Shown: piece by piece, positions 36,552 through 60,174 of the stretch
Layout of the letters: every line of letters starts with the position of its first letter
Numbering within the stretch: the stretch's first letter is position 1
From: a virus
Taxonomy: Duplodnaviria; Heunggongvirae; Uroviricota; Caudoviricetes
Length of the DNA stretch: 64,000 bases
IMG/VR virus record: IMGVR_UViG_3300042401_002002
Direction: 5' to 3' (one strand)
The notes under the pieces: generated by a model
Told to the model about the DNA's origin: nothing
What the model saw: only the letters and a program-made list of their open reading frames with translations
Database searches by the model: none
Made by a program: the position numbers and the translations under genes

Positions 36552-36611
36552 ATAATCTTTAATTTTATGGAAGTTTTATTTAATTTCTACTATTTAAAAT
36601 AAATAACTACA

Positions 36612-37184: not shown

Positions 37185-37191
37185 TTCTTTA

Positions 37192-38496
37192 ATGTACGTT
37201 ACTGAAAAACATATAATCAACAAATTACATCGCTTCTACGAAGAGATTGATTCTCTGTGTTTTAAAAGTAAAAACTTGTATAATAAAGCTCTTTATACTG
37301 TAAGACAAGAATTTATTAATACTTCTAAATTAAAAGAACAAGGCATGGTTGACCATGCTAATTATTTTAATTATTATGATATTAATAGACAATTCATTGA
37401 CAGTAAAGATGTTGATTATTATAATTTACCTGTTAAAATTAGTAATCAAACCCTTATGTTGGTTGATAAGAACTTTAAATCTTTCTTTGCTTTATGTAAA
37501 AAGTACAAAAGCAACAAAAATAATTTAACAGGTAGACCAAAGTTACCTAACTACTTGCACAAAACCAAGGGTCGTTACGTAGTAACGTATGAACTTGGTG
37601 CAATATCTAGCAAGTTTTTAAAACAAAATGTAATTAAACTAAGTGGGACTAACATTGAAGTACCCGTCATTAACAAACACAACGGTGTTTTAAAAATGGT
37701 ACGATTAGTACCCATGTCAAATAAAAAATATAAAATTGAAGTTGTTTATGATGTAGAAGAAAAGAACATGAATTTAAATAAAGACAATATAATAAGTATT
37801 GATTACGGAGTTAATAATTTAATGACTATAACATCAAATGTAGAAGGCTTTCAGCCTCGTATAATTAAAGGTGGTCATGTTAAATCAATAAATCAGTTTT
37901 ATAATAAAGTCAAAAGTGAGTTGCAGTCGCAACTACCAAACCATTCTAGTTTGAAAGACAAAGAAGGTAAACCTCAAATCTTACAGAACTCTAATAAGAT
38001 TAACACTTTAACACATAAGCGTAACTGTAAGATTGAACATGAGTTTCATGAGTACACAAACAAAATATTGCAACTGTGTTTACAGTATAATATTGGTACA
38101 ATAGTTATAGGTTGTAACAAGGGTTGGAAACAGGGAACAAATATGTCAAAGAAAGTTAACCAAAACTTTGTTTCGATACCTTACACAAAACTGACACATC
38201 AGTTAAAGTACAAAAGTGAGTTGATAGGTAATGTTGTTGTGGAACAAGAGGAAAGTTACACATCAAAGGCAAGCTTTGTTGATGATGACTTGATACCCAC
38301 CTACAATAAAAACCAAGCTAAGAGTTACAGTTTCAGTGGAAACCGTAAGCTAAGAGGTTTATACGTTACAAAATTAGGTATCAAAGTTAACTCAGATGTA
38401 AACGGTAGTTATAATATACTGAGAAAGTATATGTTAAGTATCGGTAGGATATTAGACAGCAGTCGCTGTAAATTAGTACCGATAATAATAGATTAA
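37192..38496 (+). CDS. tnpB: TnpB (RuvC-like RNA-guided nuclease family); the zinc-finger Cys pairs appear to be absent
   Basis: RuvC-I SIDYGVNNL, RuvC-II EESYTSKASFVDD and RuvC-III DVNGSYNILRKY are present, but there is no CxxC..CxxC between II and III. Confidence 0.8.
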   Translation: MYVTEKHIINKLHRFYEEIDSLCFKSKNLYNKALYTVRQEFINTSKLKEQGMVDHANYFNYYDINRQFIDSKDVDYYNLPVKISNQTLMLVDKNFKSFFALCKKYKSNKNNLTGRPKLPNYLHKTKGRYVVTYELGAISSKFLKQNVIKLSGTNIEVPVINKHNGVLKMVRLVPMSNKKYKIEVVYDVEEKNMNLNKDNIISIDYGVNNLMTITSNVEGFQPRIIKGGHVKSINQFYNKVKSELQSQLPNHSSLKDKEGKPQILQNSNKINTLTHKRNCKIEHEFHEYTNKILQLCLQYNIGTIVIGCNKGWKQGTNMSKKVNQNFVSIPYTKLTHQLKYKSELIGNVVVEQEESYTSKASFVDDDLIPTYNKNQAKSYSFSGNRKLRGLYVTKLGIKVNSDVNGSYNILRKYMLSIGRILDSSRCKLVPIIID

Positions 38497-38619
38497 ACGC
38501 AAGGGCGGATTGTTCCAAACGGGACATGAAACAGATAGAGGGTTAGCAGTTAACCCAGTGTGAGTTCAAAGTCCACGAAAAGAGAGTAATGGTATTATAT
38601 ACCATGAAATTTTGAACTG
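38495..38619 (+). ncRNA. Putative TnpB omega/reRNA scaffold derived from the IS right end
   Basis: 125-bp segment starting at the tnpB stop; repeated inverted at 42134..42258 with about 92% identity, and homology ends sharply at ...gaaattttgaactg. Confidence 0.45.
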
Positions 38620-38777
38620 TAGTAATAATAGTTGTAATACATTCATGTTATTCGTTTATTGATGAAAAGATAAACGGAAAAACTATAGAATCAAAAATGA
38701 TAGTTAAACCGGATTATAGGTTAGAAACAAACGGTAAAAATATTGATACAATTTATATTTACAAATTTGAATAGTTT

Positions 38778-40901: not shown

Positions 40902-42102
40902 ATGAAATTAAATATAAACAACGTAAGTTATTTAGAGTTTAATATAACAAATGGTATTGATGTTGTATCAGGTAGTTATAAAGGTGTTTTTAATACAAAT
41001 TATTGGTTAAACAATTTAATAATTTATGAAAGATGAAACTTACAATCAGTTCTTTTAGTAAACAGAAAATAATAAATTCATATATTTATCTTTCTTTACG
41101 AGGATATAGTGAAAAAATAGGACCACATTGGTATAATGAAATTTTAATTTACAAAAGATGAAATTAGAAATATTCAAAGGTCCTGGTCTAACTGGTGTTA
41201 GTCAATTTAAAAATACGTTTATTTATGATTTAATAACAGAAGGAATTAAAATTGATACATCAATTTGGATTAATGATTTAATAATTTCCATAAGATGAAA
41301 TTAATCATAGATAACAGAGTATTATATCGTCATGGTAAAATTACAGATTCATTCGCTCATGATATTATTACAGGGATTAACGCTGATAAAATAAATACTT
41401 TAGGTTGGTTAAACGAAATAACAATATTCACAAGATGAAATTAAAAATTGACATCCAAACCCGTGAAATTAATTCATTTAATTATAGTAATTTATATGTG
41501 AGTTATTTAAAATATCCGTATCATAAAATAAACTTAAATTGGTTAAATGAAATGACAATATTCAGAAAATGAAACTCATATTATATTATAAAGAATCTGA
41601 TTACAGTTTTAAAGATTCACCACATTTTCAAGCCTTAATTGATTGTAATACAATAACAAGTAATAAAGGTTGGGTCAATTACATTATAACATTTAAAAGA
41701 TGAAACTCACAATATACAATAGAAGTTACGTTGATTTTAATAGAACAGGTTATTATAAAATAATAACAACTGATTATGTAAAAATAGACCACTATGATTA
41801 TTGTAACTATATTTTAATAATGAAGAGATGAAACTAAAAACATTATTTTATCCAGACACCTGGGTTTTTACACAATCTGAGAAATACAGGTTATGTAATT
41901 CAGAACTGGAATATAAAATTAAACGACTAGATGTTTGGACCAATAACATACATATATTTGTAAGATGAAACTTACGGTAGAAACAGATTATGGAAACTTT
42001 GTACCAGGACGACCTGATTATGATTTACTAACAGGTTCATTTGAAAATGAAAAAATATCAATAGAATATTGGTGCAACTTGTTGGTTATTTATACGAGAT
42101 AA
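40902..42102 (+). other. Locus D of the mini-gene family: tandem array of 9 complete mini-ORFs (starts 40902, 41033, 41158, 41295, 41435, 41569, 41700, 41828, 41965), with a 10th truncated at 42107..42151
   Basis: Units of 129-144 nt, eight joined by ATGA overlaps. Conserved N-terminus MKL.I and C-terminus W.N.[IL].I[YF].R with a variable middle. Confidence 0.6.
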
Positions 42103-42133
42103 AAAGATGAAATTAAAAATACACGATAGAGAA

Positions 42134-42258
42134 CAGTTCAAAATTTCATAGTATTTTATACCATTACTCTCTTTTCGTGGACTTTGACCTCACACTGGGT
42201 TAACTGCTAACCCTCTATCTGTTTCATGTTCCCTTTGGAACAATCCACCCTTGCGTTT
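42134..42258 (-). mobile_element. Inverted solo copy of the IS607 right-end / omega-RNA-scaffold sequence, inserted into mini-gene unit 10
   Basis: The reverse complement matches 38495..38619 apart from about 7 substitutions and a 2-3-bp indel near the AT-rich distal end. The mini-gene reading frame breaks exactly at its edge. Confidence 0.6.
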
Positions 42259-42679
42259 GTTTTATGTCACTTAACTTATTTGATTCAACAAGCTACGCTT
42301 GTTGTCTTGTTATATTGTGACGATTCTAAAACACTCTTGCGTTTTACGTTTACGAGAACAAAACCTTCAGGTTTTGATTTGTAAACAACCTAATACCACT
42401 ATGTCAAATAATCAACAACCTTTTGTTGTTGAGCAAACAAAGGTACTAATTTAAAATGATAGAACAAAATAAATTAGTACTTTATTTTAAATAGTATATT
42501 TTAAATAAAACTTCTATAAAATTAAAGATTTATTGGTCGCTTTGACTACACCTCTACTTTAAAGATAGTGGTGCATGTTTCTTAATGTCCAAAGGCGGTA
42601 CTTATTATTTGTCGGTTATTAATGAAAATAATACGTTCATTAAATATAATTGGTTAAATAATATAACAATATATGACAA

Positions 42680-43711
42680 ATGAAATTAAAAATACATAAA
42701 ATAATTTATTATTCATTTACTGAATATCGTATTAGCACTTCACTAATAAAAGGTTTTACTAAATCAAAAGAAACCAAAGATTGGTTAAATTACATAACAG
42801 TTTATAATAGAAGAGAAAATGAAACTTAACATAGATAATAGAATTGAAATATTTAAAAAAACATTACTTTATGATGATATTTTTTTAAACCCAAAAACAA
42901 TTAAAATAGATTTATCAGGTTGGTTTGAAATAACTATATTTATAAGATGAAATTAAAAATTGATTACAAAATAATGGTACACCACAGATTTACTGTAGAA
43001 ATATTTTGTAAATCTAACTGGTTTATTCCTGAATACTGGATTAATAAAATTATTGTTTTTGAAAGATGAAACTTAACACACTACACAAAGAGTATAATTT
43101 TAATGATACAAATATGTATGTATTTCTGGTAACAAGCAAAATAAGAACCGTTACTGCATTGTCATTAAAAACAATTTTTAATAAGTTAATTACTTACGAA
43201 AGATGAAATTAGAAATAACTAAATCAGTACATAACTTCAAGAATACATTTACTCTTGAAATATTGTTAAATAAATTCACAGCACAAATAACTCATTCAGC
43301 CTGGTGCAACACAATAGATGTTTATATAAGGTAAATTTATGAAATTAAAAATTCAAAACACAGATTGGTTTCTTGAATTCACAGGTTATCATCCACTTAT
43401 AACAGGTGGATATACAAAACCACAACCACCAATTTCAAAAAACTGGACCAACAAATTAACATTATTTATACGATGAAACTTATTACAGAAAATAAACAAT
43501 ATAATTTTAATAATACCAGAACAAGTTCATTTCTGATATCCGGTAAAATAAGAACTGTTACAGCATTGTTAATTAAAACAAATATTAATAAGTTAATTAC
43601 TTACGAAAGATGAAACTTAAAATTTGGTACCACAATCACAACTTTAAAAATACAAACGTATATATTTCATTAACCATCGGTTATAGTTGTAAAATAAATC
43701 ATGACAACTGA
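42680..43711 (+). other. Locus E of the mini-gene family: 8 mini-ORFs (42680..42829, 42819..42950, 42947..43069, 43066..43206, 43203..43334, 43339..43476, 43473..43613, 43610..43711)
   Basis: Same MKL.I / W.N.I.I(Y/F).R architecture. Units 15 and 18 are close paralogs (..SKIRTVTAL..KT..NKLITYER). Confidence 0.6.
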
Positions 43712-43789: not shown

Positions 43790-44320
43790 GGAAAAAAAAT
43801 TTTTGAGGACCCGGAATAAATATGCGTTTTGGAAATTGCTGGTGGTATTTTGGTTACAAACGATATTAGTTATTTTTGTTTATTAAAATACATGCCAGCA
43901 TTACGATAAAAACAAATTAGTTGTTTTGTTTTATTGGTTTAGTTTATATCGGGAATATAAAACAATATTGGTTTAGAATTCAAAAAATTCTGGGAAAAAT
44001 TTTTTTGAAGATGGAAGAAGATTATAATAAGAACAGAATTAGTTGGTTTGTTTTATTGGGAATGTACCGGTATTAAAAAAAAAGAATAAATTAGAATATA
44101 AACAATATTTGTTATTTTTGTTTATTAGAATAATAATTATATTTGGAATACCTGTCAGTATTAAGAAAAGAATAAGATTGGTTGGTTTTATTGGAAATAT
44201 AAAAGTTATTCGGTTAGTTAGTTTAGAATTCAAAAATTTCTGGAAAAATTTTTTTGAAGATGAAGGAACAAGGTTGGTTTTGGTTGTTTCCCTGGGAAAT
44301 AAAAAACTAGATATTTTGTA
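43790..44320. repeat. Non-coding repeat region: degenerate direct repeats of about 130-250 bp carrying TTGGTT(T/G)GTTTTATTGG(G/A)AAT iterons and aattcaaaaaWttctggGaaaaatttttttgaagatg hairpins
   Basis: Three or four repeat copies read directly. The track ORFs 44039..44395(-) and 44043..44321(+) lie on the repeats and are considered spurious. Confidence 0.5.
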
Positions 44321-44391
44321 GAAGTGTAGCCCCAGCGACATAAACCCCTGTGTATCAGGGAGTTCCCTACGGGTACGGAGAAGTAGGTATA

Positions 44392-44583
44392 TCAAACCAA
44401 CCCACTATTATTCGCTCTATACCTATAATTGCAATTGTTATACAAGATTACATCATTAAGACTTATATAATCATTATTAATAAGTCTATTATAAAAGTCT
44501 CTATCTATTTGATTCATTTCAGTACCGTAGTTATTAACTATACACTTTGCTTTATATTTAAGGTTATTGAAGATGTTATTCAT
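44392..44583 (-). CDS. Hypothetical small protein
   Basis: 63-aa ORF; competes with the overlapping plus-strand ORF. Confidence 0.3.
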   Translation of the reverse strand: MNNIFNNLKYKAKCIVNNYGTEMNQIDRDFYNRLINNDYISLNDVILYNNCNYRYRANNSGLV

Positions 44584-44680
44584 ATTAGTATTAATTTAGC
44601 TTGTAATAAACGATAATAAGTATTAAGGTTAAAGTACCTACATTAGTATTATTGTTTAATGTAGGTACTTAAAATTGAAA

Positions 44681-45100
44681 TTAGTCCCAATTTAAATCAT
44701 TTTGTCTTATAATTTCTTTTTTGATTTTATCTAAATCAAAAGTAACTTTTGTAAATTTAGAAATTTCATTTAATACATTTTCTATATTAAAATTAGAATA
44801 TTCTATATCTATAATTGTTTGGTTTGGTTTATTGTCATTAAATTTCAATCTAATTAAATCGAAATCAAAGTCCCAAACGTACAAATCAATGCCACTTTTT
44901 AACCCAAAATCAATATAAAAAAAATCTTCTTCGCCTTCGTCGGATTCATTTTCATAATAGGCTGTTTTTGTAGATTGTCTAGTTTTTAGTGCAATCATTA
45001 ATTGCCACATAAAACCACTATGCAAAGGACTTGGATTAATATCTAAACCTAAATCAATTTTAATCATTTCAGAAGCGAATATTTGAGAAGGAGTTTTCAT
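44681..45100 (-). CDS. Hypothetical protein
   Basis: 139-aa ORF. Confidence 0.5.
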   Translation of the reverse strand: MKTPSQIFASEMIKIDLGLDINPSPLHSGFMWQLMIALKTRQSTKTAYYENESDEGEEDFFYIDFGLKSGIDLYVWDFDFDLIRLKFNDNKPNQTIIDIEYSNFNIENVLNEISKFTKVTFDLDKIKKEIIRQNDLNWD

Positions 45101-45393
45101 AGTCTTATAATTTTTAAAGTTTACAACCCTTGTAAACCAAACTTGGTATTAATACGGTGCAAAGTTTCATTTAGTTGTCAAAATTTTAAAAATCTTTGAA
45201 AGTTTATATAAAAACAACTAAATTAGTTCAATTATCTTTGTTTAGTGCAATTCTACCTCAAGATTAATATAAATTTGTATTATAAAAAGAACTTTCAACC
45301 AAAATAGGTTATTTTATATGAATATTCCGATATGACGCAACTTAATTTATTTAAATCCGATAGAGTACATATAACCATTAAATAAATAAGTTT

Positions 45394-45960
45394 ATGAAAA
45401 CGCAAATCAATTTCTCAAAGATTACTTTAGAAAAATTCAATTCATTATCTAATTTAGATAAACTTGAATTTTACCAATATTTATTTGAAAACAAAATTAC
45501 TTTTAATAGTTTTTTTGGTTTCAAATTGAAAAATAGTCATATCTTAGATACGTTTAAATTTTATGGTACAGATTTATTTGAAAGTAAATTTAATAATCTA
45601 TATAGAAACAATATAGATGAATATGAACTTTTAACTGATAAATCTTTGGACACTTTATTAAGTCAAAAAAGTGTAATTGATATTTTAATTGTTTGGCATA
45701 ATTTTAAAGAAAATATTATTGCTGACTTAATTTATGGTGAACAAGTTTTTAATGTAGCTATATGGAACTTTTTACCTAAAACAGTTAGGACTGAAATTGC
45801 ACAATATGTATTGGATTTTTGGGTTCATAAAAAAGAAACAACCCACAAAGATTGTAAATTTATTTATGATTTTATTAGAGAAGAAAAATTGAAAGCTAAT
45901 ACAATTGATAATGCTTTTGCAGAAATTGAGGATATGTTTCATGGGTGTTATGTAGATTAA
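45394..45960 (+). CDS. Hypothetical protein
   Basis: 188-aa ORF. Confidence 0.5.
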   Translation: MKTQINFSKITLEKFNSLSNLDKLEFYQYLFENKITFNSFFGFKLKNSHILDTFKFYGTDLFESKFNNLYRNNIDEYELLTDKSLDTLLSQKSVIDILIVWHNFKENIIADLIYGEQVFNVAIWNFLPKTVRTEIAQYVLDFWVHKKETTHKDCKFIYDFIREEKLKANTIDNAFAEIEDMFHGCYVD

Positions 45961-46500
45961 TACAAACCTAAATAACAATCTTTAAACCCAACTTTGTTTT
46001 ATACATTGTTGGGTTTTTTGTATTATAACATTGTTTTTTTTAGTTTAGTTAGTTCTATGACAATCGCTTTGTTCGGTTAACTTTTTTTCAGTCCTCTTAC
46101 TAGCTTGTTAGCGTTCATGCTACATTGTACGCAAATAAAACATTAAAGTTACAGTCTTTAATAACAAAGTTATATTTTATACATTGTTTATAACAATCTT
46201 TTATGACAAACTAAATTAGTTTTGTTGTTTTATACATTGTTTACATTCTATAAAACAAACTTTATTTTAATGAGTTTTAAGCGTACTTATTTAGTTGTTT
46301 AATACTTTGTATTGGTTTGTTATTAAAGTCTCTTAAAACTATCTAAAACCGCATTAAAATACATTGTTTTGATTAAGATTATATACATTGTTTATAACAT
46401 TGTTTTGACTTAACTAAATAAACAATCTTTAATAACAAACTTATTTAGTTTTATACATTGTTTTGACAATCTTTAATAACATTGTTTACTAATATAAATT
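45961..46500. repeat. Left arm of a large inverted repeat. The outer ~165 bp is near-identical to the right arm; the inner part is diverged with TATACATTGTT iterons (about 8 copies)
   Basis: The reverse complement of 48563..49030 aligns. Iterons were counted by eye. Confidence 0.6.
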
Positions 46501-46765
46501 AATCGCTTAAACCTACATAAATCGTACCTAAATCAATAATAGTGAATATATAATGACTATTGAATATTACAATATGTTTAGACACTACTTTATTTTTATT
46601 ATTAATGAAACAACCTTTGTCAATAAGTTGTATATTGGTTAAAGTACTATTATTAGAATAAAGTTTAAATTTATCTAATAAGGTAGTAATTATGTTTTGT
46701 TTGAAAATTGATAGTTCTTTAAGCATAGACAAACAAATTAAATAAGTTGGTTTAATACTAAACAA
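46499..46765 (-). CDS. Hypothetical protein; inverted paralog of 48317..48562
   Basis: ..KFKLYSNNSTLTNIQLIDKGCFINNKNKVVSKH..HYIF aligns with ..RFKKYSNNSNINSIKLIDKGCIINDKNKLVSLH..HYIF. Confidence 0.5.
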   Translation of the reverse strand: MFSIKPTYLICLSMLKELSIFKQNIITTLLDKFKLYSNNSTLTNIQLIDKGCFINNKNKVVSKHIVIFNSHYIFTIIDLGTIYVGLSD

Positions 46766-46855
46766 ATAAACTCATTTAGTTATATAATAAGTTTTAAGCA
46801 ACGCAAACAACAAACTGAATACTTTATATTATTTTGTTATTTGCGTTAAATGTAG

Positions 46856-47113
46856 TTAGTTATTCAAAGCAAGTTTTCTAATTTCATCATCAGACAAAGA
46901 AAACATTTTTTCACAACAAAACTCAATATTTTCAAACGTACAAACAACTCTAGCATAATCTTTATTAGCAAGTTGTTTTTTGAAATAATAAAGATAAACA
47001 TTAGGTTTTTTGGTTTCTTGTCGCATATAGCAATCAAAACCAAACAAATTAAGTTGATTTAATTCAGACCATTTAGGAACTGAAACGGTTTTGTTATTTT
47101 GAGTAGTAAACAT
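46856..47113 (-). CDS. Hypothetical protein; near-identical duplicate of 49900..50157
   Basis: 85-aa proteins differ at about 5 positions. Confidence 0.55.
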   Translation of the reverse strand: MFTTQNNKTVSVPKWSELNQLNLFGFDCYMRQETKKPNVYLYYFKKQLANKDYARVVCTFENIEFCCEKMFSLSDDEIRKLALNN

Positions 47114-47185
47114 ATACTTGATATTTTAGTTGGTTTAAACAAACCTAAACAAAATAAATTATTTAGGTTTTGTTATTTTGATTGT

Positions 47186-47398
47186 CTAGTTTCTATACTT
47201 ACCAATTATATAACCTATACTCTCAATAGTTAATTGAGTATCTTTGCTAAAATTTTCAACTGAATTAACAGTGCCTTGATAATTATTAACAAAATTGTTA
47301 TACAACTCTTTTAATTCAGTTTCTTTAACAAAATGTACAATAGTATTTACATTATTGATATTTTTCTCTAGTTGGAAAATTGGCTCTACATTTTTCAT
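47186..47398 (-). CDS. Hypothetical small protein
   Basis: 70-aa ORF. Confidence 0.4.
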   Translation of the reverse strand: MKNVEPIFQLEKNINNVNTIVHFVKETELKELYNNFVNNYQGTVNSVENFSKDTQLTIESIGYIIGKYRN

Positions 47399-47635
47399 AA
47401 TCTTGGTTATTTAATTGGTATATGGGTTTATTCGCAAAAACCTACATAAAGGTTACAGTATAAACAACTTATTTTTGTTAATATTGGAAAGTTTATATAA
47501 AAACAACTAAATTAGTTCAATTATCTTTATAAAGTACAATTCAAATACTATAATCATTATTAATTGTATTATATAAAGAAGTTTAAACAAATATTGGTTA
47601 TTTTATATGAATATTCCGTTATTTTTAAAATTAAT

Positions 47636-47670
47636 GTAACCTTATTAGTTTAAATACGATATAAATACCA
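47636..47670 (+). promoter_or_regulatory. Class-B promoter/5'UTR module on the plus strand (gtaaccttattagTTTAAATACGATATAAATACC-ATG)
   Basis: Same module as the minus-strand copy at 49739..49773. Confidence 0.45.
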
Positions 47671-47712
47671 TGAAACAAATAAAACGGTTTATTTGTTAAA
47701 CTAAACAAGACT

Positions 47713-48174
47713 ATGCAAGCTATTAAAACTCAAATCGAATTAATTTTAAATAACAAATTACCTAACTTCGCTATCAAGGTAATTGAAAGAAAAAACTTTA
47801 TTGGTAATGGTACATACTTAGCAATTTTAATTGCATCTACTATGGATAAAACTATTCATAATGTAGATAACCAATATCCAGATTTTTGTAGTTTAAGATT
47901 AGATAATGATTTAACTTTAGAAACTCAACACTATGGTGGTTTTGGTGGTGGTTCACTATATAGAAATATTGACAAAAACAACCCCGATGAAAAATATCTG
48001 GCAATGAAAAGTGTTAAAATACCATTTAGAAAACCCCAACAAACTGAAAAGGCTGTACTTAATGCAATTTCTAAATTTGCTGATAACTATCTTAAAACCC
48101 TTAAAGAAATACAAGCAATGGGTTTATTAAGATATACTGATTTAGTTGATTATTCTAAATTGTTAAACTCTTAA
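47713..48174 (+). CDS. Hypothetical protein
   Basis: 153-aa ORF. Confidence 0.5.
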   Translation: MQAIKTQIELILNNKLPNFAIKVIERKNFIGNGTYLAILIASTMDKTIHNVDNQYPDFCSLRLDNDLTLETQHYGGFGGGSLYRNIDKNNPDEKYLAMKSVKIPFRKPQQTEKAVLNAISKFADNYLKTLKEIQAMGLLRYTDLVDYSKLLNS

Positions 48175-48316
48175 TACTATAAACAACTTACTAAATGATT
48201 TATTTGTTTAGTAAGTTGTTTCTTATTCTACTATAAGTATATGAAAACAATAAACCAAGTTAAAGTTATTAAAGTAAGTAAAGCAAAATTTATGGTTTTG
48301 TCTGAACAAATTAACT

Positions 48317-48562
48317 ATGCAAACAAAAGACTATAATCTTATCTTTGATAATAAACTATTGTCAATATTCAAACATAATATATTAACTATTTTATTTGAT
48401 AGATTTAAAAAGTATTCAAATAATAGTAATATTAATTCTATTAAATTAATTGATAAGGGTTGTATTATTAATGATAAAAATAAATTGGTTTCTTTACATA
48501 ATATAATAATCAATGAACATTATATTTTTGTTGTTACTGATATGTCAATAGTAACAATATAA
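48317..48562 (+). CDS. Hypothetical protein; inverted paralog of 46499..46765
   Basis: See 46499..46765. Confidence 0.5.
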   Translation: MQTKDYNLIFDNKLLSIFKHNILTILFDRFKKYSNNSNINSIKLIDKGCIINDKNKLVSLHNIIINEHYIFVVTDMSIVTI

Positions 48563-49030
48563 CAAAACAATCTTTATAAACAATGTCAAATAGTAACTTT
48601 ATAAACAATGTAATAAAAGATTGTTTTTGTGCCGGTTTAGATAGCTACAAGCGATTATTATTGTTAAGTAATACAAAGTATCAAACAATGTATTAAAGTC
48701 GCTTAAAACTCATTAAAACAAACATTATAAAACAATGTCAATAAACAATCTTATATACTAATAATGTATAAAATAAAAACAATCTTTTTTAACAATCTTA
48801 TATACTAATAATGTTTAAAAACAATGTATAAAAATATATTTGTAATACAAAACTTATTTTATTGGTTTGCGTACAATGTAGCATGAACGCTAACAAGCTA
48901 GTAAGAGGACTGAAAAAAAGTTAACCGAACAAAGCGATTGTCATAGAACTAACTAAACTAAAAAAAACAATGTTATAATACAAAAAACCCAACAATGTAT
49001 AAAACAAAGTTGGGTTTATAAAGATTGTTA
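48563..49030. repeat. Right arm of the large inverted repeat with AACAATGTATA iterons
   Basis: See 45961..46500. Confidence 0.6.
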
Positions 49031-49258
49031 AATTTTAATTAATGCTACATTTTTAAAAGCATTACCAAAAATTTCAGTTACTTGTTTATAACCTTCATTT
49101 AAACTATTTGTATTAATTATAATTTCTAAATTAATACCGTTACTATATAATTGGTATTGATACATATTGTTATTATTTAAACACTTGATAAAATTCTTTT
49201 GTATTATGATTTTCAAAAACCCTAAACGAAAATGAAATAGGGCTTTCATATATTTCAC
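49028..49258 (-). CDS. Hypothetical small protein
   Basis: 76-aa ORF. Confidence 0.4.
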   Translation of the reverse strand: MKYMKALFHFRLGFLKIIIQKNFIKCLNNNNMYQYQLYSNGINLEIIINTNSLNEGYKQVTEIFGNAFKNVALIKI

Positions 49259-49358
49259 TAATAACTAATTTATTCACATTATCATTAACTAACTCATTAT
49301 ATTTATTAGTTAATTCACTTACACTATTTAATGTTTCAATTTTCATAGTCTTTATTAT

Positions 49359-49694
49359 TTAAACTAATTCAGTTATTACATTTGCACCTACTATGGTACA
49401 TTTAAATTTAAGCGTAGCAAAATATTGGTTTACTTTATTTTCACAATATTCTTTATTTGTACTGAATTGTGAAATAATAAACAAACAACAATTTTTAGCA
49501 AAATTAAAATCATTATTCAATCTTAATTCTGTGTTATGTTTATCACTTCTTATTGAATCCTTTGAAACAACAAATCTACATTTATTAAATTCAAAAGTAG
49601 TCAAAGTAGTTGACCACTCAATAATCTCTAAATTATTAGGGTTTTTACTGTTTATCTTAATAAAATCACTAATTACTTTTGTTTGCGTTTTCAT
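49359..49694 (-). CDS. Hypothetical protein (preferred over the overlapping plus-strand ORF 49393..49728)
   Basis: A class-B promoter lies immediately upstream on the minus strand. Confidence 0.45.
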   Translation of the reverse strand: MKTQTKVISDFIKINSKNPNNLEIIEWSTTLTTFEFNKCRFVVSKDSIRSDKHNTELRLNNDFNFAKNCCLFIISQFSTNKEYCENKVNQYFATLKFKCTIVGANVITELV

Positions 49695-49738
49695 AGTCTT
49701 AAGTCTTTATTGGTTAAAACCGTTTTAACCATTTGCAT

Positions 49739-49773
49739 GGTATTTATATCGTAAAAACAATATAAAAGGTTAC
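49739..49773 (-). promoter_or_regulatory. Class-B promoter (minus strand: gtaaccttttatattgTTTTTACGATATAAATACC)
   Basis: Motif family. Confidence 0.5.
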
Positions 49774-49899
49774 ACTTTTAATAAACTATTTTTAAATTAT
49801 TTTTTAATGAGTTTTAAGCAACGCAAATAACAAAATAATATAAAGTATTCAGTTTGTTATTTGCGTTCAATGTAGTTAGTTAAACAGTATTAAACTTAG

Positions 49900-50157
49900 T
49901 TAGTTTCGTAAAGCAAGTTTTCTAATTTCATCATCAGACAAAGAAAACATTTTTTCACAACAAAACTCAATATTTTCAAACGTACAAACAACTCTGCAAT
50001 AATCTTTATTCTCTAGTTGTTTTTTGAAATAATAAAGATAAACATTAGGTTTCTTGGTTTGTTGTCGCATATAGCAATCAAAACCAAACAAATTAAGTTG
50101 ATTTAATTCAGACCATTTAGGAACTGAAACGGTTTTGTTATTTTGAGTAGTAAACAT
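49900..50157 (-). CDS. Hypothetical protein; duplicate of 46856..47113
   Basis: Near-identical paralog. Confidence 0.55.
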   Translation of the reverse strand: MFTTQNNKTVSVPKWSELNQLNLFGFDCYMRQQTKKPNVYLYYFKKQLENKDYCRVVCTFENIEFCCEKMFSLSDDEIRKLALRN

Positions 50158-50197
50158 AGGTAAGTTGTTTTAGTTGGTTAGTAATAAAACTAATAAT

Positions 50198-50548
50198 TTA
50201 TTTATTACCTACATAATGAGGTAAAAACACTGTTGAGTTTTCTAAAGTATATAAATCTTTTGTTAAACGTTCAATATCGTTTTTAGCGTTTTTAATTCTG
50301 TTTTGAAGTCTTTTAGCATTAATTTTGTCAATAGATACATTAACACCTTCCATTTCAGAACCAACAAAAACAGATTTTTTGCCACAAGATTTAAATGTTT
50401 TGTTAGATGCAATTTCTAACTCATTATAGGCTTTCAATAATAATTCCTTAACATAATCAATCGCACCTTGATTAGGATTTATTGTTGGGTTATTTTCAAC
50501 CGTTTCAACAGTATCAAATAATGAAGTATAATCGAAATTGTCTAACAT
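50198..50548 (-). CDS. Small early protein, hypothetical
   Basis: 116-aa ORF. Confidence 0.45.
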   Translation of the reverse strand: MLDNFDYTSLFDTVETVENNPTINPNQGAIDYVKELLLKAYNELEIASNKTFKSCGKKSVFVGSEMEGVNVSIDKINAKRLQNRIKNAKNDIERLTKDLYTLENSTVFLPHYVGNK

Positions 50549-54291: not shown

Positions 54292-55032
54292 CTACAATCC
54301 ATTAATTAATTCATTTAGTTTATTTAAGTTGTAAGCTACTTTATTAGTTAGTAAATCATTGCTAAATAATATTTGATTATCTTTGTTATTTTCAAACAAA
54401 GGTATTAAACTAATTGTTTGTATTAGTTCTTTTTTTGTTGGTAATTTGTTTACATATATGTTAATTCCTTTTTGTTTTGTATCTGTTAATGTTTTGTCAA
54501 TTGCATCAAAAGTTCCACCATTAAACCCGAAAATATTAATAATATAAATTGAGTTGTAAGGTTCTTTTTTAATAGTTATACCTTCTTTTAAATTGTTTGA
54601 GTATTTTCTTTCAGTACCTACAATTAATTGTGCATTAACATTTAAATTTAATGTATTATCATAATACTCATTAATAACATTAAAGCAAAAACTATATTTA
54701 TCTTTAAACTCATTATTTTGTTTATTATAGAATAATATAGTTTTATCTTTTTTAGTGGCATTAAAGTAGTCTAGTAACAAAGTATAGCCACCTAAATACA
54801 TTAAAGCCTTAATAGAAAACAAAGGGTTAAGATTGTTTTGTTTTGTATAGTTAATTAAACTATTATTTGTTTTAAATTTAGATTCTAAAACGTAGCTAAT
54901 AACTAAATCACTATATTTATTAAAGTTATTAATGTTAGTTATTAACTCATTGAATATAGATTCAATATCTAATGTATTAACAAATGTATTAACATTATTA
55001 ATACCTTTTATTTTTGCTTGTTTGATTGTCAT
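54292..55032 (-). CDS. Hypothetical protein
   Basis: 246-aa ORF. Confidence 0.5.
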   Translation of the reverse strand: MTIKQAKIKGINNVNTFVNTLDIESIFNELITNINNFNKYSDLVISYVLESKFKTNNSLINYTKQNNLNPLFSIKALMYLGGYTLLLDYFNATKKDKTILFYNKQNNEFKDKYSFCFNVINEYYDNTLNLNVNAQLIVGTERKYSNNLKEGITIKKEPYNSIYIINIFGFNGGTFDAIDKTLTDTKQKGINIYVNKLPTKKELIQTISLIPLFENNKDNQILFSNDLLTNKVAYNLNKLNELINGL

Positions 55033-55041
55033 AATTAGCTA

Positions 55042-55443
55042 TTATTTAATTAATCTAATTTTATCACTTACAATAGAAACATCGTATAAATTATTAATGC
55101 TATCAATATGTTTTTTAGCATTATATTTATTTGTTTTTGTAATTACGTATTCTATTGTTTGAATATCACAAATATCTATTTTAGCATTTACTTTTTTGGT
55201 TTTGAATAAACCTTTGTAACCTAATTTATTTAATTGTGTTACTACTTTTTGAGTAGTATAAAACGTTTGTGTTTTATTATGATTAACAAAAGAAATTTGT
55301 ATAATTTGTAAAGTATTCAAACTATTGAAATACTTGTTTGTATCTTTGTTAATTTCTTTTTGTGTTTCATTCCATTCCTTATTGGTTAACGGTTTAAAAC
55401 GGTTACTTAAAATATTAACAAGTGTGTTATTCAAAGTTTTCAT
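55042..55443 (-). CDS. Hypothetical protein
   Basis: 133-aa ORF. Confidence 0.5.
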   Translation of the reverse strand: MKTLNNTLVNILSNRFKPLTNKEWNETQKEINKDTNKYFNSLNTLQIIQISFVNHNKTQTFYTTQKVVTQLNKLGYKGLFKTKKVNAKIDICDIQTIEYVITKTNKYNAKKHIDSINNLYDVSIVSDKIRLIK

Positions 55444-55479
55444 AATCTTAGAAATTTGCTTTATTGTGCAAACTTAATA

Positions 55480-55510
55480 CTTATACTCTTAAAGTTATTA
55501 AAAGGTTACA
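55480..55510 (-). promoter_or_regulatory. Class-B promoter (minus: tgtaaccttttaataacTTTAAGAGTATAAG)
   Basis: Motif family. Confidence 0.5.
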
Positions 55511-55550
55511 TACTATTGAAACTATTTTTAAAATATTTTTTTTGTTTATA

Positions 55551-56018
55551 TTAGTTCCACAAATTACTTACTAAGTGTTTAAGTTCCATTAATGGTGTAA
55601 TTAATAAAAAATTATATGTATTATCATATTCAGTATTATACATTACTTTTAGATAATCTTTGAATATAGGCTCAAATAATTCCATTGTACCTAAACATCT
55701 TGGATTCATATAATCACAATTAATAAAAACGTGTGTATTACTATATTGTTTATTGATTTTATTTAATTCGATATATAGTAATTCCATTGATTTGAACGGT
55801 TTATATTTGTGTATATAAACCGTGTTACCGTTTTCATAGTAATAACTTAAGAGTTCAATTTTTTGTTTTTTACCTAAACCTATTGTAAGTATTTTATTGA
55901 AAATAATATTTTCAATTTTGTTATTATCTAAATATTGATTAAAATATTCAGTTTTTAACATATAGATTTGTTTCGGTTTTATTTCTAAAAACAACATTGA
56001 TTTGAATATTTTTATCAA
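55551..56018 (-). CDS. Hypothetical protein (true start possibly the internal MLKTEYF at 55961; an alternative 47-aa ORF 55948..56091 reads in another frame)
   Basis: ORF track plus downstream promoter position. Confidence 0.4.
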   Translation of the reverse strand: MIKIFKSMLFLEIKPKQIYMLKTEYFNQYLDNNKIENIIFNKILTIGLGKKQKIELLSYYYENGNTVYIHKYKPFKSMELLYIELNKINKQYSNTHVFINCDYMNPRCLGTMELFEPIFKDYLKVMYNTEYDNTYNFLLITPLMELKHLVSNLWN

Positions 56019-56168
56019 TGTTTAGTTTTTCCTTGCAGTATTCGACAAAGTGTTTAACCTCATTGTTTAGAATATCTTTATAGCTTTGCATAATCTTGGT
56101 AGTTTAAATATACAGTCTTTTACGCTTACTTTTTAATTAAGTTTCATAAAAGACTGTAATTTTTTAAA

Positions 56169-56831
56169 TTATTTTAACAATGTACCTTTTTTGGGTTTTT
56201 CTTTTTTGTTTATATATGTTTTTGTTGGTTTAAAGTTTTTTAAGATTATTTCTTCATTAACCTTTGAAGTTAATATAAAATTAATTGTTTCTTTTTGTAG
56301 TGGAGTTAAATCCTTTGTTAGTTGGTTTTTATAATAATCTTTGTTTAAATTCGATTCTAACAAACCCAAAACAGTTATATAGTATTCTGCTAGTATAAAA
56401 CTGTTTTCATCTTTGTAAGTGTTATAATAAACAACTTCATTACCAAATTTAAAACATTCGTGTGTATCTTTGATAAGTTTTTTTACTTTGTCAACTGTTA
56501 ACAATGTAGCATTTTTGGTATTATCTGTTTTATGTGATTCTAATATATAATTTATATAAGTTTCACTAATATGTTTGGGTACTTCATTGTAATTTAAAAT
56601 TTCTAAATCTTTTTTATATAAATTACTATGTGTATGCAACTTTGCTACATTGTCATTATCTGATTTAAACAATGTACTAATGTGATATTCAGTACCTAAA
56701 TTATTACCATTATTAGGTACAATTTTGATAACATAACCAATGCCTGTGGGTATGTATTTACAAGCTACAAAATCATTTAGTTTGATTTTATTTCTTTTGT
56801 TATTCCAAACTGTAAAGTTAATAGTACTCAT
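56169..56831 (-). CDS. Hypothetical protein
   Basis: 220-aa ORF. Confidence 0.5.
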   Translation of the reverse strand: MSTINFTVWNNKRNKIKLNDFVACKYIPTGIGYVIKIVPNNGNNLGTEYHISTLFKSDNDNVAKLHTHSNLYKKDLEILNYNEVPKHISETYINYILESHKTDNTKNATLLTVDKVKKLIKDTHECFKFGNEVVYYNTYKDENSFILAEYYITVLGLLESNLNKDYYKNQLTKDLTPLQKETINFILTSKVNEEIILKNFKPTKTYINKKEKPKKGTLLK

Positions 56832-56904
56832 AATCTTGGTTATTTTAGTTAGTTACTTAATGAATATACGGTTTATACGTTCACTTTTTAAAAAGGTTGT
56901 GTTT

Positions 56905-57384
56905 TTATTTATGTTTTAATACAATTTTATTATGTAGATTATCTACTATAAAATTATTATTTGCATTATCAATTCTAATTGTATATCTATCAAAATCATT
57001 ATAAGATAAACTATATAAACTAAGTTTATATTTAAAGTTTATTTTATATTTTTCTAAGTAATTTTTAATACTATCAAAATGTGTTTGATTTAATCTAATT
57101 GTTATTATGTTATTTTTAATTTCTAAGGTAGAAATTTTAGCAAACAAATTACAACCAAACTTTGTTTTATTGAGTTCACTAAATGTAAAATCAATATTAA
57201 GAGTAATTTGTTCCTTTGCTTGTTTCTTTAAGTATGTTTGATATTTTTTGTTACAAATATCACTTACAAAACAAGTATTATCATATTGTTTTATTATTTC
57301 ATTTTCTGAAATAATTTCAGTATTAAAATCTGTTAAGGTTTTAATCTTACCTTTGTTTGTGGTGGTGTTAACAAACTTTTGCAT
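56905..57384 (-). CDS. Hypothetical protein
   Basis: 159-aa ORF. Confidence 0.5.
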   Translation of the reverse strand: MQKFVNTTTNKGKIKTLTDFNTEIISENEIIKQYDNTCFVSDICNKKYQTYLKKQAKEQITLNIDFTFSELNKTKFGCNLFAKISTLEIKNNIITIRLNQTHFDSIKNYLEKYKINFKYKLSLYSLSYNDFDRYTIRIDNANNNFIVDNLHNKIVLKHK

Positions 57385-57508
57385 AATCTTTTTTAACTTT
57401 ATTAGTTACTTAATGAATATAGTCATAATACGTTCACTTTTTAAAAAGGTTACATTAAAAACAAAAAAACTCTTATTATTTTTATACAATAAGAGTTTTT
57501 AATATATT

Positions 57509-58069
57509 TTAACCAATTAAACTATATTTGATTAATTCAGTTTGTTGTTTGATTTTCCTTGCATTTGGATAACTATTTGGTACTGTATATTGATTTGCTT
57601 CACTTTCAAGTAATGCAACTACAATATTTTTAGGTATTATCATTGGTTCATTGCTTACATTCCAATTATCAATATTAATAACCGTATTATGTTTAAAAAC
57701 ATTGTCTAGTTTATTAATCATTGCTTTGTGTGAAGTTTCTAACATTTCTAATACTAAAGATTTTATTTTTTCTTTGTTAGTAACGTAATTGTCAATATCT
57801 AATTTCAAACCAATATTTAAATTTTCTTTAGCTAAATTAAATCTTGTTAAATTAAATTCACTTGGTACATTGTTTGCTAACTCATCAATTAATGATATGT
57901 TTTTACTTGTTAAGGTTGTTATAAGTATATGATTATAGCAAACATAATAAGAAATATTTTTGATTGCTACGTACATAGCAAAGTTACCATTTTGGTAAAA
58001 AGGTTTTGAGTTAACCTCAATATAAACTAAATTATTGGGTTGTGATTCAAATGTATTTAGAATTTTCAT
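57509..58069 (-). CDS. Hypothetical protein
   Basis: 186-aa ORF. Confidence 0.5.
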   Translation of the reverse strand: MKILNTFESQPNNLVYIEVNSKPFYQNGNFAMYVAIKNISYYVCYNHILITTLTSKNISLIDELANNVPSEFNLTRFNLAKENLNIGLKLDIDNYVTNKEKIKSLVLEMLETSHKAMINKLDNVFKHNTVINIDNWNVSNEPMIIPKNIVVALLESEANQYTVPNSYPNARKIKQQTELIKYSLIG

Positions 58070-58153
58070 AGTCTTTATTGTTTATCTTATTAAACTTAAT
58101 ACTTATACTGAATATCTTATTAAAAGGTTGCGTTTATACACCATATTTTAATA

Positions 58154-58519: not shown

Positions 58520-58572
58520 AATCTTGGTAGTTAAACTTAGTACTTTTACGTTTACTTTAATATAAAGTTGTG

Positions 58573-58896: not shown

Positions 58897-59020
58897 AGTC
58901 TTTATTGTTTAAATATACTACTTATACGCTAGGTTTCAAACAAAGTTTCAATATTTACCTATTATTTTCAAAATAAAAACCTTAACTATTAAATTAATAA
59001 TTAAGGTTTTTGTATTTAGT

Positions 59021-60169: not shown

Positions 60170-60174
60170 TTTTA

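What the first reader, a model, noticed from the sequence alone, without database searches (positions are those of the whole stretch)
45961..49030. 0.5-kb inverted repeats with TATACATTGTT iterons bracketing a 2-kb segment with inverted paralogous genes
45975..46138 and 48865..49028 are near-perfect reverse complements, including a GC-richer core gacaatcgctttgttcggttaactttttttcagtcctcttactagcttgttagcgttcatgctacattgtacgc. The inner 350 bp of each arm is diverged but retains about 8 copies of TATACATTGTT and shared blocks (taatgagttttaagc, aatactttgtatt). The paralogous genes 46499..46765(-) and 48317..48562(+) sit just inside each arm in mirrored orientation. This geometry resembles invertible segments flanked by long inverted repeats (as in the P1 C-segment), but it could also be a palindromic, iteron-bearing replication origin. 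No invertase is adjacent; the only recombinases in the window are the tyrosine recombinase at 12440 and the IS607 TnpA.
Basis: seen in the sequence. Interest (0 to 1): 0.65.

Follow-up and report, generated by a model that had tools for sequence, protein, structure and literature searches.

The report
Mirrored intergenic modules bracketing a phage gene cassette
Two mirror-image copies of a conserved non-coding module (terminator, conserved core and a dense array of one short motif) bracket a 2-kb cassette of small genes in an uncultured T4-like phage; public assemblies suggest the copies occasionally recombine, but there is no sign of a programmed switch and no test of a replication origin was possible.

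Summary
45983-46135 and 49018-48866 are a 153-nt exact inverted repeat. The inner ~350 nt of each arm are old, diverged homologues. The motif ASATTGTT occurs 25 times in the 1 kb of arms and 18 times in the other 63 kb.

Each arm lies between convergent genes and starts with an intrinsic terminator that faces the flanking operon. Relatives (L012, L007) carry a single arm at such a junction, so the pair looks like two junction modules placed back to back by modular shuffling. TerL is T4-like at about 30% identity.

Near-identical contigs cross a repeat in the window's orientation in 9 assemblies. One contig (L011) joins the left flank to the inverted segment. An 83% relative (L012) has the reciprocal junction. 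Two contigs lack 3,044 nt between direct 85-aa gene repeats.

I read this as occasional homologous recombination between repeated cassettes, as with PeSLs. It is not a P1/Mu-type switch: no invertase is adjacent and flipping would change no gene or promoter.

The motif arrays are probably binding sites for an unidentified DNA-binding protein. An origin of the T4 oriE kind is not excluded and not supported.

Interest is moderate. I rate it a new variant of a known kind.

The parts
45974..46135 (+). Left outer inverted repeat. It holds a 153-nt exact stretch (45983-46135) plus 9 nt beyond a 2-nt indel.
48866..49030 (-). Right outer inverted repeat, the reverse complement of the left one.
45984..46021 (+). 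Intrinsic terminator for the plus-strand flanking operon. It has a 9-bp stem AAACCCAAC/GTTGGGTTT followed by T6. One ACATTGTT site lies in its loop.
   Evidence: -15.2 kcal/mol, z = -3.65; read from the sequence
48980..49017 (-). The same terminator, facing the minus-strand flanking operon.
   Evidence: -15.2 kcal/mol, z = -3.99
46055..46135 (+). Left copy of the GC-richer conserved core. It is 100% identical in the 83% relative L012 and about 89% identical over 64 nt in L009, which has no motif array. It has no Rfam match and no covariation.
48866..48946 (-). Right copy of the conserved core.
46136..46498 (+). Inner left arm (L type). It is non-coding, and its ACATTGTT sites all point inward, with AGATTGTT sites on the other strand. 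Within the aligned arms, long blocks are 100% identical to L012, and the indels correspond to gain or loss of motif units.
48563..48865 (-). Inner right arm (R type). It is the same kind of array, and the whole arm matches the single arm of L007 at about 82%.
46265..46313 (-). Central conserved block of the left arm (GCTTAAAACTCATTAAAA ... AATACAAAGTATTAAACAA), read on the outward strand.
48669..48718 (+). Central conserved block of the right arm, read on the outward strand.
46499..46765 (-). Small gene of 88 aa from a TTG start; gene callers use the ATG at 46726, giving 75 aa. It is a paralogue of the 81-aa gene and points outward toward the left arm.
46856..47113 (-). 85-aa gene. Its paralogue at 49900-50157 is 95% identical in DNA. 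The two copies form the direct repeat that bounds the 3,044-nt indel.
46800..46847 (-). Long hairpin downstream of the 85-aa gene, followed by a degenerate GCTTAAAAC... block. This is a PeSL-like composite cassette, and a second copy lies at 49802-49867.
   Evidence: (I5)
47186..47398 (-). 70-aa gene, the first gene of the leftward unit.
47399..47712 (.). Divergent intergenic region at the centre of the segment. Positions 47473-47682 resemble the region upstream of the 188-aa gene (45184-45389, 76%).
   Evidence: (D1)
47713..48174 (+). 153-aa gene, the first gene of the rightward unit. A hairpin follows at 48181-48221.
48317..48562 (+). 81-aa gene, a paralogue of the 88-aa gene, pointing outward toward the right arm.
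45394..45960 (+). Left flanking gene (188 aa), the last gene of the plus-strand block.
49028..49249 (-). Right flanking gene, called as 73 aa, or as 45 aa from 49165. It is the last gene of the minus-strand block, and its stop codon overlaps the end of the repeat.
49755..50204 (-). Direct repeat of 46731-47165 (82% overall, with 97 nt exact). It comprises the 85-aa paralogue, the hairpin and the GCTTAAAACTCATTAAAA block.

Best explanation
The feature is two paralogous copies of one intergenic module, placed in mirror orientation.

Each module consists of:
- an intrinsic terminator that faces the incoming operon;
- a strongly conserved core of about 80 nt;
- a non-coding stretch of about 350 nt packed with the site ASATTGTT.

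Each module sits where two gene blocks converge. In this phage, whose large terminase is T4-like, two such junctions lie 2.7 kb apart. Between them is a small cassette transcribed divergently from its centre: leftward the 70-, 85- and 88-aa genes, rightward the 153- and 81-aa genes.

Shown:
- Relatives carry a single module at a convergent junction.
- The L-type and R-type inner arms are each conserved in a different relative.
- The outer 153 nt are identical within this genome, including a stretch that differs in both relatives. This indicates gene conversion or recent exchange between the two copies.

Inferred:
- The pair arose by recombination at repeated regulatory cassettes, in the way PeSLs shuffle modules in T4-type phages.
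- The identical 153 nt now serve as a substrate for occasional homologous recombination that flips the cassette.
- The direct 85-aa gene repeats allow loss of 3,044 nt that include one arm.
- Flipping has no regulatory consequence, so it is a by-product and not a switch.
- The ASATTGTT arrays are most likely clustered binding sites for a sequence-specific DNA-binding protein of the phage or its host. That protein could act at these convergent junctions as a regulator or a barrier. Neither the protein nor its role has been identified.
For: - Repeat and motif statistics.
- Terminators face the flanking genes.
- Gene layout: the flanks converge and the interior diverges.
- Single-arm relatives. 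L012 reads A genes -> C genes -> repeat -> L-type inner arm <- 85-aa gene. L007 reads 153 -> 73 -> 81 -> R-type arm <- 89 <- 115.
- L009 has the core alone, without arrays.
- Homogenisation. The two copies are identical over 46017-46056, where L012 and L007 differ by substitutions and by 5-nt and 19-nt indels.
- Structural variants at 98-100% identity. L011 has the opposite orientation. L021 and L022 join the 116-aa gene to the 85- and 75-aa genes, with different crossover points inside the 85-aa paralogues.
- L024 has a mosaic 85-aa gene.
- L012 has the junction C-repeat-L-type arm, which is the junction expected in the flipped isomer.
- TerL is about 30% identical to T4-type terminases.
- The hairpin plus GCTTAAAACTCATTAAAA cassette recurs between genes here and in L003 and L009.
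- The PeSL concept comes from PMC2839356 and PMC4122927.
- In L003 the motif forms palindromic, operator-like pairs upstream of a gene.
Against: - The opposite orientation rests on a single 3-kb short-read contig. The exact repeat (153 nt) is longer than the k-mers I assume these short-read assemblers use (not checked here), so a mis-join cannot be excluded.
- The same caution applies to L021 and L022, which cross a 97-nt exact repeat.
- No reciprocal junction was found at near-identity.
- The PeSL analogy is only partial. The promoter half of the cassette is not demonstrated: the sigma-70 scan is at background and TATAAATA is not enriched.
- Classical PeSLs are about 50-60 nt long (my recollection; the length was not confirmed in the sections I read), not 500-nt arrays.
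- The binding protein is unknown, so the function of the arrays is inferred from their pattern alone.
Confidence: 0.5

Rival explanations
1. Each arm, or the pair together, is a replication origin of the iteron kind, comparable to T4 oriE. An initiator protein would bind the ASATTGTT sites, and transcripts from the adjacent small genes might prime synthesis.
For: - Dense clusters of one short motif lie in conserved non-coding DNA.
- The arms are at least as conserved as the coding flanks.
- They sit at a switch of coding strand and at the maximum of cumulative GC skew in the window.
- There is a precedent: T4 oriE carries evenly spaced 12-nt repeats, and T4 origins lie near strand switches (PMC3016281).
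Against: - The sites are 8-11 nt long, irregularly spaced (11-153 nt between starts) and on both strands.
- No initiator, helicase-loader or other replication gene is adjacent.
- The neighbouring 81/88-aa family has no detectable relatives outside this phage group and no informative fold.
- GC skew is confounded by gene orientation.
- In T4 itself the role of the oriE repeats is unproven.
- L009 has no array. L012 and L007 have one arm. L021 and L022 appear to lack one arm.
Confidence: 0.15
2. The segment is a programmed invertible switch of the Mu G / P1 C / shufflon kind. A site-specific recombinase encoded elsewhere in the genome (the tyrosine recombinase at 12440 or the serine recombinase at 36612) would flip it.
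For: - Long inverted repeats bracket mirrored paralogous genes.
- One contig has the opposite orientation.
- Two recombinase genes lie in the window.
Against: - No recombinase lies within or next to the segment. The serine recombinase belongs to an IS607-type element with TnpB and has its own ends.
- The inner genes are complete and stop before the repeat, and the terminators lie in the repeat. Inversion would therefore exchange nothing.
- Contigs from 9 assemblies that cross a repeat show one orientation.
- Relatives have single arms.
Confidence: 0.05
3. The repeat is a fixed, inert duplication. L011, L021 and L022 are assembly chimeras formed across exact repeats, and no rearrangement occurs in nature.
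For: - The exact repeats (153 nt and 97 nt) are at or above common assembler k-mer lengths (my assumption; not checked).
- Only one contig shows the flip.
- No reciprocal junction was found at near-identity.
- Many contigs break at or inside the repeats (L001, L002, L030).
Against: - L012, an independent 83% relative, has the C genes joined through the repeat to the L-type inner arm, so the flipped junction exists in evolution.
- The outer 153 nt are homogenised within this genome, which needs exchange between the copies.
- L021 and L022 come from two assemblies and have different crossover points, and L024 has a mosaic paralogue.
- If assemblers resolved the repeat at random, 9 of 10 assemblies agreeing would be unlikely.
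Confidence: 0.2
4. The whole 3-kb unit is a non-autonomous transposon or foldback element. It would have terminal inverted repeats and subterminal transposase-binding repeats, as in Tn7 or Mu ends.
For: - The terminal inverted repeats are perfect.
- Polar arrays of a short site point inward from both ends.
- AAAT lies immediately outside both ends.
Against: - There is no transposase inside.
- No relative shows an empty site. Relatives instead keep one arm at the same junction.
- AAAT is also part of a palindromic extension of the repeat, and a 4-nt match is weak evidence in 77% A+T DNA.
- The apparent indel (47114-50158) is not bounded by the arms.
Confidence: 0.03
5. The arms are transcribed outward as long 3' UTRs or non-coding RNAs. 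The motif (AACAAUGUAUAAAA in RNA) and the core would then act at the RNA level, for example as a protein sponge or a small RNA.
For: - The inner genes read into the arms, and no strong terminator precedes the outer hairpin.
- The GCTTAAAACTCATTAAAA block has the sense orientation on the outward strand.
- The arm RNAs fold somewhat better than shuffles, with z = -2.4 and -4.2.
- The core is conserved beyond what the mini-ORFs would require.
Against: - There is no Rfam match.
- No compensatory changes occur in the core (only four sequences were available).
- The motif occurs on both strands, and as palindromic pairs in L003, which suits DNA recognition better.
- The folding z-scores are expected from the terminator hairpins and from oppositely oriented motif copies.
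Confidence: 0.07

Closest known systems
PeSL (promoter-early stem-loop) cassettes of T4-type phages (Arbiol et al. 2010, PMC2839356; Comeau et al. 2014, PMC4122927)
   Same: - Repeated composite regulatory cassettes lie between small ORFs in a variable region of a T4-like phage.
- Close relatives differ by indels and rearrangements whose breakpoints fall in those cassettes.
- Recombination between the copies is the proposed mechanism.
   Different: - Here the repeated unit at the junctions is much larger (165 nt exact, about 500 nt in all) and carries a dense motif array.
- The two copies are inverted, so the outcome is inversion and not an indel.
- A promoter in the cassette is not demonstrated.
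- The phage is only distantly T4-like (TerL about 30% identical).
Invertible segments Mu G, P1 C, e14 P and the p15B Min system (Gin/Cin/Pin/Hin serine invertases)
   Same: - Inverted repeats bracket a segment of a few kb in a phage.
- Mirrored paralogous genes lie just inside the repeats.
- Both orientations may exist.
   Different: - No invertase is adjacent.
- The repeats do not lie inside a gene, so no alternative C-termini are exchanged.
- One orientation dominates in public assemblies.
- Homologous rather than site-specific exchange is the likely mechanism.
T4 oriE repeat cluster and plasmid or phage iteron origins
   Same: A cluster of short repeats lies in non-coding DNA near a switch of transcribed strand in a T4-like genome.
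   Different: [quoted passage not shown]
- Here the spacing is irregular, both orientations occur, the cluster is present in two mirrored copies, and no initiator is adjacent.
Flip-flop isomerisation across long inverted repeats by general recombination (plastid genomes, herpesvirus segments; the 2-micron plasmid uses FLP)
   Same: An identical inverted repeat is kept homogeneous by exchange between the copies, and the region between the copies inverts.
   Different: In those systems the isomers are roughly equimolar. Here one orientation predominates, so exchange is rare or recent.

Membership tests
Site-specific invertible segment (Gin/Cin/Hin type, P1 C-like) | Inverted repeats bound the segment | tested here: met
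   A 153-nt exact inverted repeat, 45983-46135 / 49018-48866.
Site-specific invertible segment (Gin/Cin/Hin type, P1 C-like) | A dedicated invertase gene is adjacent to or inside the segment | tested here: not met
   None of the ORFs from 44.6 to 50.5 kb matches a recombinase family in Pfam or PHROGs. The nearest recombinases are at 36612 (an IS607-type TnpA with its own TnpB and ends) and at 12440.
Site-specific invertible segment (Gin/Cin/Hin type, P1 C-like) | Inversion reconnects a fixed promoter or gene part outside with alternative parts inside | tested here: not met
   The inner genes are complete and end before the repeat. Each repeat starts with a terminator that faces the outside operon.
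Site-specific invertible segment (Gin/Cin/Hin type, P1 C-like) | Both orientations coexist in a population | tested here: inconclusive
   One contig (L011) has the flipped orientation. Contigs from 9 other assemblies have the window's orientation. No reads were available.
Iteron-type replication origin (including T4 oriE) | A cluster of regularly spaced direct repeats (12 nt in T4 oriE; 17-22 bp in plasmids) | tested here: not met
   There are 12 and 13 sites with an 8-nt core (11-15 nt with flanks). Starts are 11-153 nt apart, and sites occur on both strands.
Iteron-type replication origin (including T4 oriE) | An initiator gene next to the repeats | tested here: inconclusive
   The adjacent 81/88-aa paralogues have no family match and no relatives outside this phage group. 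The AF2 model has pLDDT 64 and gives no fold match.
Iteron-type replication origin (including T4 oriE) | Replication starts there | not testable with these tools
   This needs marker-frequency or initiation mapping. The GC-skew maximum at 44-47 kb coincides with the switch of coding strand, so it is not diagnostic.
PeSL-mediated modular shuffling in T4-type phages | The genome is that of a T4-type phage | tested here: inconclusive
   TerL matches T4-type terminases in Pfam and PHROGs, and is 26-30% identical to Microcystis, Flavobacterium, cyanophage and Klebsiella T4-likes. Other core genes were not examined.
PeSL-mediated modular shuffling in T4-type phages | A repeated composite stem-loop and promoter cassette lies between small ORFs | tested here: inconclusive
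   The stem-loop plus conserved block GCTTAAAACTCATTAAAA recurs in the window and in L003 and L009. Promoter activity is not shown, and the consensus scans are at background.
PeSL-mediated modular shuffling in T4-type phages | Differences between close relatives have their breakpoints in the repeated cassettes | tested here: met
   L011 breaks in the 153-nt repeat. L021 and L022 break in the 85-aa gene and cassette repeat. The rearrangement in L012 is bounded by the repeat and by the upstream region 45111-45406.
Transposon or foldback element with terminal inverted repeats | A transposase inside, or empty sites in relatives | tested here: not met
   No transposase is present. Relatives keep one arm at the junction instead of lacking both.
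Known structured RNA family | A match to an Rfam model, or covariation | tested here: not met
   No hit reaches gathering score, and there are only chance-level hits at E of 2.8-3.9. There are no tRNAs. None of 20 predicted pairs shows a compensatory change.

The most novel reading that the evidence does not exclude
The ASATTGTT arrays, together with the near-invariant 80-nt core, could be the cis element of an undescribed phage system. One possibility is an origin of the T4 oriE kind. Another is a polar barrier to forks or transcription at convergent junctions, bound by a protein that is still unknown. In either case, mirrored copies kept identical by gene conversion would let the enclosed cassette flip.
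Probability: 0.15. Interest if true: 0.6.

Novelty: new variant of a known kind. Interest (0 to 1): 0.38.

Why it matters
- It is a clear example, from an uncultured freshwater or marine T4-like phage, of how repeated regulatory modules drive inversion, deletion and module exchange in the variable regions of large phages.
- It shows that long exact inverted repeats can both break metagenome assemblies and lead them astray.
- The motif arrays and the invariant core are conserved non-coding elements with no known function. If they prove to be an origin or a barrier element, they would give a handle on replication or transcription control in a phage lineage with no cultured member.

Tried and rejected
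- Rfam at gathering score and at relaxed E-value, and ARAGORN: nothing.
- Consensus folding of the core on both strands: weak structure and no covariation. Only 4 sequences were available, two of them identical.
- Mini-ORFs in the core (MTIALFG, MNANKLVRGLKKS): reading frames are not kept across relatives in one orientation, and nucleotide conservation exceeds any coding need. I did not pursue this (reasoning from the sequence).
- Sigma-70 promoter scan: 46 sites against 51 expected. The T4 late-promoter box TATAAATA: 26 against 31.5 expected. Both are uninformative.
- blastn of 44-51 kb against INPHARED phages: no match.
- IMG/VR: no copy of the core and no relative of the 153-aa protein.
- GTDB genomes: no copy of the core, so there is no sign that it is an attachment site copied from a host gene.
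- Pattern ACATTGTT x3 in GTDB and IMG/VR: more than 120 hits each, mostly unrelated tandem repeats from all taxa, none similar to the window. Two AT-rich viral contigs (L239, L176) have similar arrays, but their neighbouring genes gave no clue. Because the pattern selected them, they are not independent evidence.
- Pfam and PHROGs on all ORFs in and around the segment: nothing significant.
- Profile search of the 81/88-aa family against 1.84 billion representatives: one hit, from the same family.
- AF2 model of the 81-aa protein: pLDDT 64. Foldseek against the PDB found nothing below E = 1.
- Look-ups for the reciprocal flipped junction through the right-flank genes and the small ORF in the right arm: only the window's arrangement.


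Full report
**What the window is.**
- The window is DNA of about 25% G+C that encodes a large terminase of the T4 type. The evidence is Pfam Terminase_6N and PHROG terminase families, and 26-30% identity to Microcystis, Flavobacterium, cyanophage and Klebsiella T4-like phages.
- It also encodes a baseplate hub, thymidylate synthase, a NUDIX-containing 983-aa protein, a small tyrosine recombinase (12440-13255) and an IS607-type element.
- Genes run on the plus strand from 17.5 kb to 45,960 and on the minus strand from 49,028 to the end of the window. The finding therefore lies exactly between two converging gene blocks.
- The same phage is present at 99-100% identity in several JGI, ENA and Logan assemblies, including two 43-kb contigs.

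**The observation.**
- The inverted repeat is real. Positions 45983-46135 are the exact reverse complement of 49018-48866 (153 nt). Nine further identical bases follow after a 2-nt indel.
- Inside that boundary the identity collapses. The inner ~350 nt align at about 42% with gaps.
- The inner arms still share ordered blocks: GCTTAAAACTCATTAAAA (exact in both) and TTGTTT(A/G)ATACTTTGTATT.
The 11-mer TATACATTGTT occurs 5 and 2 times in the left and right arms.
It occurs 12 and 13 times in the arms, 25 in 1,006 nt, against 18 in the remaining 63 kb. TACATTGTT occurs 17 times against 3.3 expected. There is no other cluster in the window.
- All ACATTGTT copies point inward in both arms. AGATTGTT copies occur in either orientation.
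- The 88-aa and 81-aa products are paralogues, 58% identical with E = 3e-27.

**Anatomy.**
- Each outer repeat begins with a canonical intrinsic terminator: a 9-bp G+C-containing stem followed by T6, at -15.2 kcal/mol with z about -3.7 to -4.0. It is oriented to stop transcripts coming from the flanking operon. In the outward direction the hairpin has no U tract.
- Next comes a GC-richer core of about 80 nt, then the motif-rich inner arm.
- The enclosed genes form two short units that diverge from 47399-47712. Leftward are the 70-, 85- and 88-aa genes, and rightward the 153- and 81-aa genes.
- All of these are complete and end before the arms.
- None has a family match.
- Flipping the segment would therefore change no coding sequence and no promoter-gene connection.

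**Relatives.**
- Homologues of the 153-aa protein led to contigs of related phages. A scan for the core found three more contigs.
- L012 matches the window at roughly 80-89% identity. It has one arm only, in the order A genes -> C genes (the window's right-flank genes, here on the other side) -> repeat -> L-type inner arm <- 85-aa gene.
- L007 has a 153-aa protein about 95% identical and DNA 82-91% identical. It also has one arm only, of the R type, between converging genes.
- L009 has the 64-nt heart of the core at about 89% identity in an ordinary intergenic region, with no ASATTGTT site at all.
- L003 has four copies of the motif arranged as palindromic pairs upstream of a gene.
- The arm is thus a module that normally occurs singly at a convergent junction. 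The L-type and R-type inner arms are old variants, each conserved in a different relative. The core can occur alone.
- Within the arms, long blocks are 100% identical to the relatives. The core is unchanged in L012 over 91 nt although the flanking genes are 79-89% identical. Differences are mostly indels of one motif unit. This indicates function at the DNA or RNA level.
- The stretch 46017-46056 differs in both relatives (substitutions, with 5-nt and 19-nt indels) but is identical between the two copies in the window. The outer 153 nt have therefore been homogenised within this genome.

- The left junction B-repeat-L arm is crossed in the window's orientation by L001 (3300042486), L015 (ERZ27272034), L016 (3300002835), L019 (3300042484) and, by gene order, the 43,207-nt contig of 3300059473.
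- The right junction C-repeat-R arm is crossed in the window's orientation by L019/L026, L027, L028 (ERZ27272035) and L013 = L029 (3300020485).
- One contig, L011 = L014 = L017 (3300020522, 3,016 nt), joins window 44255-46135 to the reverse complement of 49030-47731. Identity is 100% apart from the end-of-repeat indel. That is the left flank followed by the R-type arm, the 81-aa gene and the 153-aa gene.
- I found no near-identical contig with the reciprocal junction. L012 has it at 83% identity.
- The exact repeat (153 nt) is longer than the k-mers I assume these short-read assemblers use, which I did not check. A single contig therefore cannot prove inversion. However, agreement among 9 other assemblies shows that the repeats are not being resolved at random, and that one orientation predominates.
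- Two further contigs, L021 and L022, join the 116-aa gene (50198-50548) to the 85- and 75-aa genes of the left side. This is the result expected from loss of 47114-50158 (3,044 nt, including the right arm) by exchange between the direct 85-aa gene repeats. Their crossover points differ. L024 has a mosaic 85-aa gene. The repeat there has 97 exact nt, so the same caution about assembly applies.

**Interpretation.**
- The best account is that two junction modules were brought back to back by the kind of recombination at repeated regulatory cassettes described for T4-type phages (PeSLs; PMC2839356, PMC4122927).
- Their outer parts have since exchanged sequence.
- The resulting 153-nt identity allows occasional homologous inversion.
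- A hairpin followed by GCTTAAAACTCATTAAAA recurs between small genes here and in relatives, and it bounds the apparent deletion. That is PeSL-like, although I could not show a promoter in it.
- A programmed switch of the P1 C or Mu G kind is unlikely, for the reasons given in the membership table.
- A transposon is unlikely because relatives keep one arm instead of showing an empty site.

**What the arms do.**
- This question remains open.
- A DNA-binding array is the reading I favour. The grounds are the short site, its occurrence on both strands, the palindromic pairs in L003, the conservation of sites, and the gain and loss of whole units.
- An origin of the T4 oriE kind is possible but lacks regular spacing and an adjacent initiator, and one arm appears dispensable.
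- The GC-skew maximum here coincides with the change of coding strand and is not diagnostic.
- An RNA-level role is not excluded. The arms are probably transcribed outward, and the arm RNAs fold with z = -2.4 and -4.2. However, there is no Rfam match and no covariation.
- The 81/88-aa family next to the arms is confined to this phage group, and its predicted structure is uninformative.
- The core is absent from GTDB genomes and from IMG/VR, so nothing suggests it is a copy of a host sequence.

**Verdict.**
- This is a real, statistically solid feature with a well-supported structural explanation and tentative evidence of polymorphism.
- It is not a new kind of switch, and it has not been shown to be an origin.
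- The unexplained part, the motif arrays plus the invariant core, gives it moderate interest.

Noticed in passing
window 40902-42102 and 42680-43613: There are at least 17 head-to-tail mini-genes of 40-49 aa. All start MKL... and end with a conserved W.N..I.(F/Y).R tail, and their start and stop codons overlap. It is a tandem family of tiny paralogues of unknown function.
   Followed up: no
window 36551-38620 and 42133-42534: An IS607-type element lies at 36551-38620. It has a serine-recombinase TnpA (36612-37184), a TnpB (37192-38496) and ends at 36551-36609 and 38495-38620. A 400-nt inverted miniature copy of both ends (91-94% identical) is inserted in the mini-gene array. That copy may be a non-autonomous derivative or a spare TnpB guide-RNA region.
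   Followed up: partly
window 19247-22039: A 930-aa protein with about eight tandem helix-turn-helix modules lies between the terminase gene and a 983-aa NUDIX-containing protein. It also has HNH and homing-endonuclease PHROG matches. It looks like a free-standing homing endonuclease.
   Followed up: no
window 43800-44400: This stretch has a very strong G-over-C skew (+0.4 to +0.5), contains 50-nt direct repeats (43968-44017 / 44218-44265) and has only implausible ORFs.
   Followed up: no
window 25917-25958 and 26430-26471: A 42-nt exact direct repeat flanks the ORF 25938-26429.
   Followed up: no
window 55000-63000: Repeated intergenic cassettes (55-88 nt, 85-91% identical) lie between the small minus-strand genes, for example 60885-60970 and 59729-59814. 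This is the PeSL-like pattern of a hyperplastic region.
   Followed up: no
L239 2660-2830 (IMG/VR 3300011113_000664, 170 kb) and L176 5980-6360 (IMG/VR 3300022752_000151): Other AT-rich viral contigs carry arrays of the same 8-mer ACATTGTT in non-coding DNA. L239 has eight direct copies about 17-27 nt apart (mostly 17-18), between a terminator and a gene start. L176 has copies in both orientations over about 400 nt. The neighbouring genes gave no clue. Because the search pattern selected them, they are not independent evidence.
   Followed up: partly
L003 4908-5015 and L009 3437-3540: Small hydrophobic peptide genes (about 35 aa) start directly after the conserved block CTTAAAACTCATTAAAA in relatives. 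In the window's arms the same block is followed by no ORF.
   Followed up: no
L007 1778-2236 and 4186-4644: The relative L007 carries two paralogues of the 153-aa gene, one on each side of its single arm.
   Followed up: no
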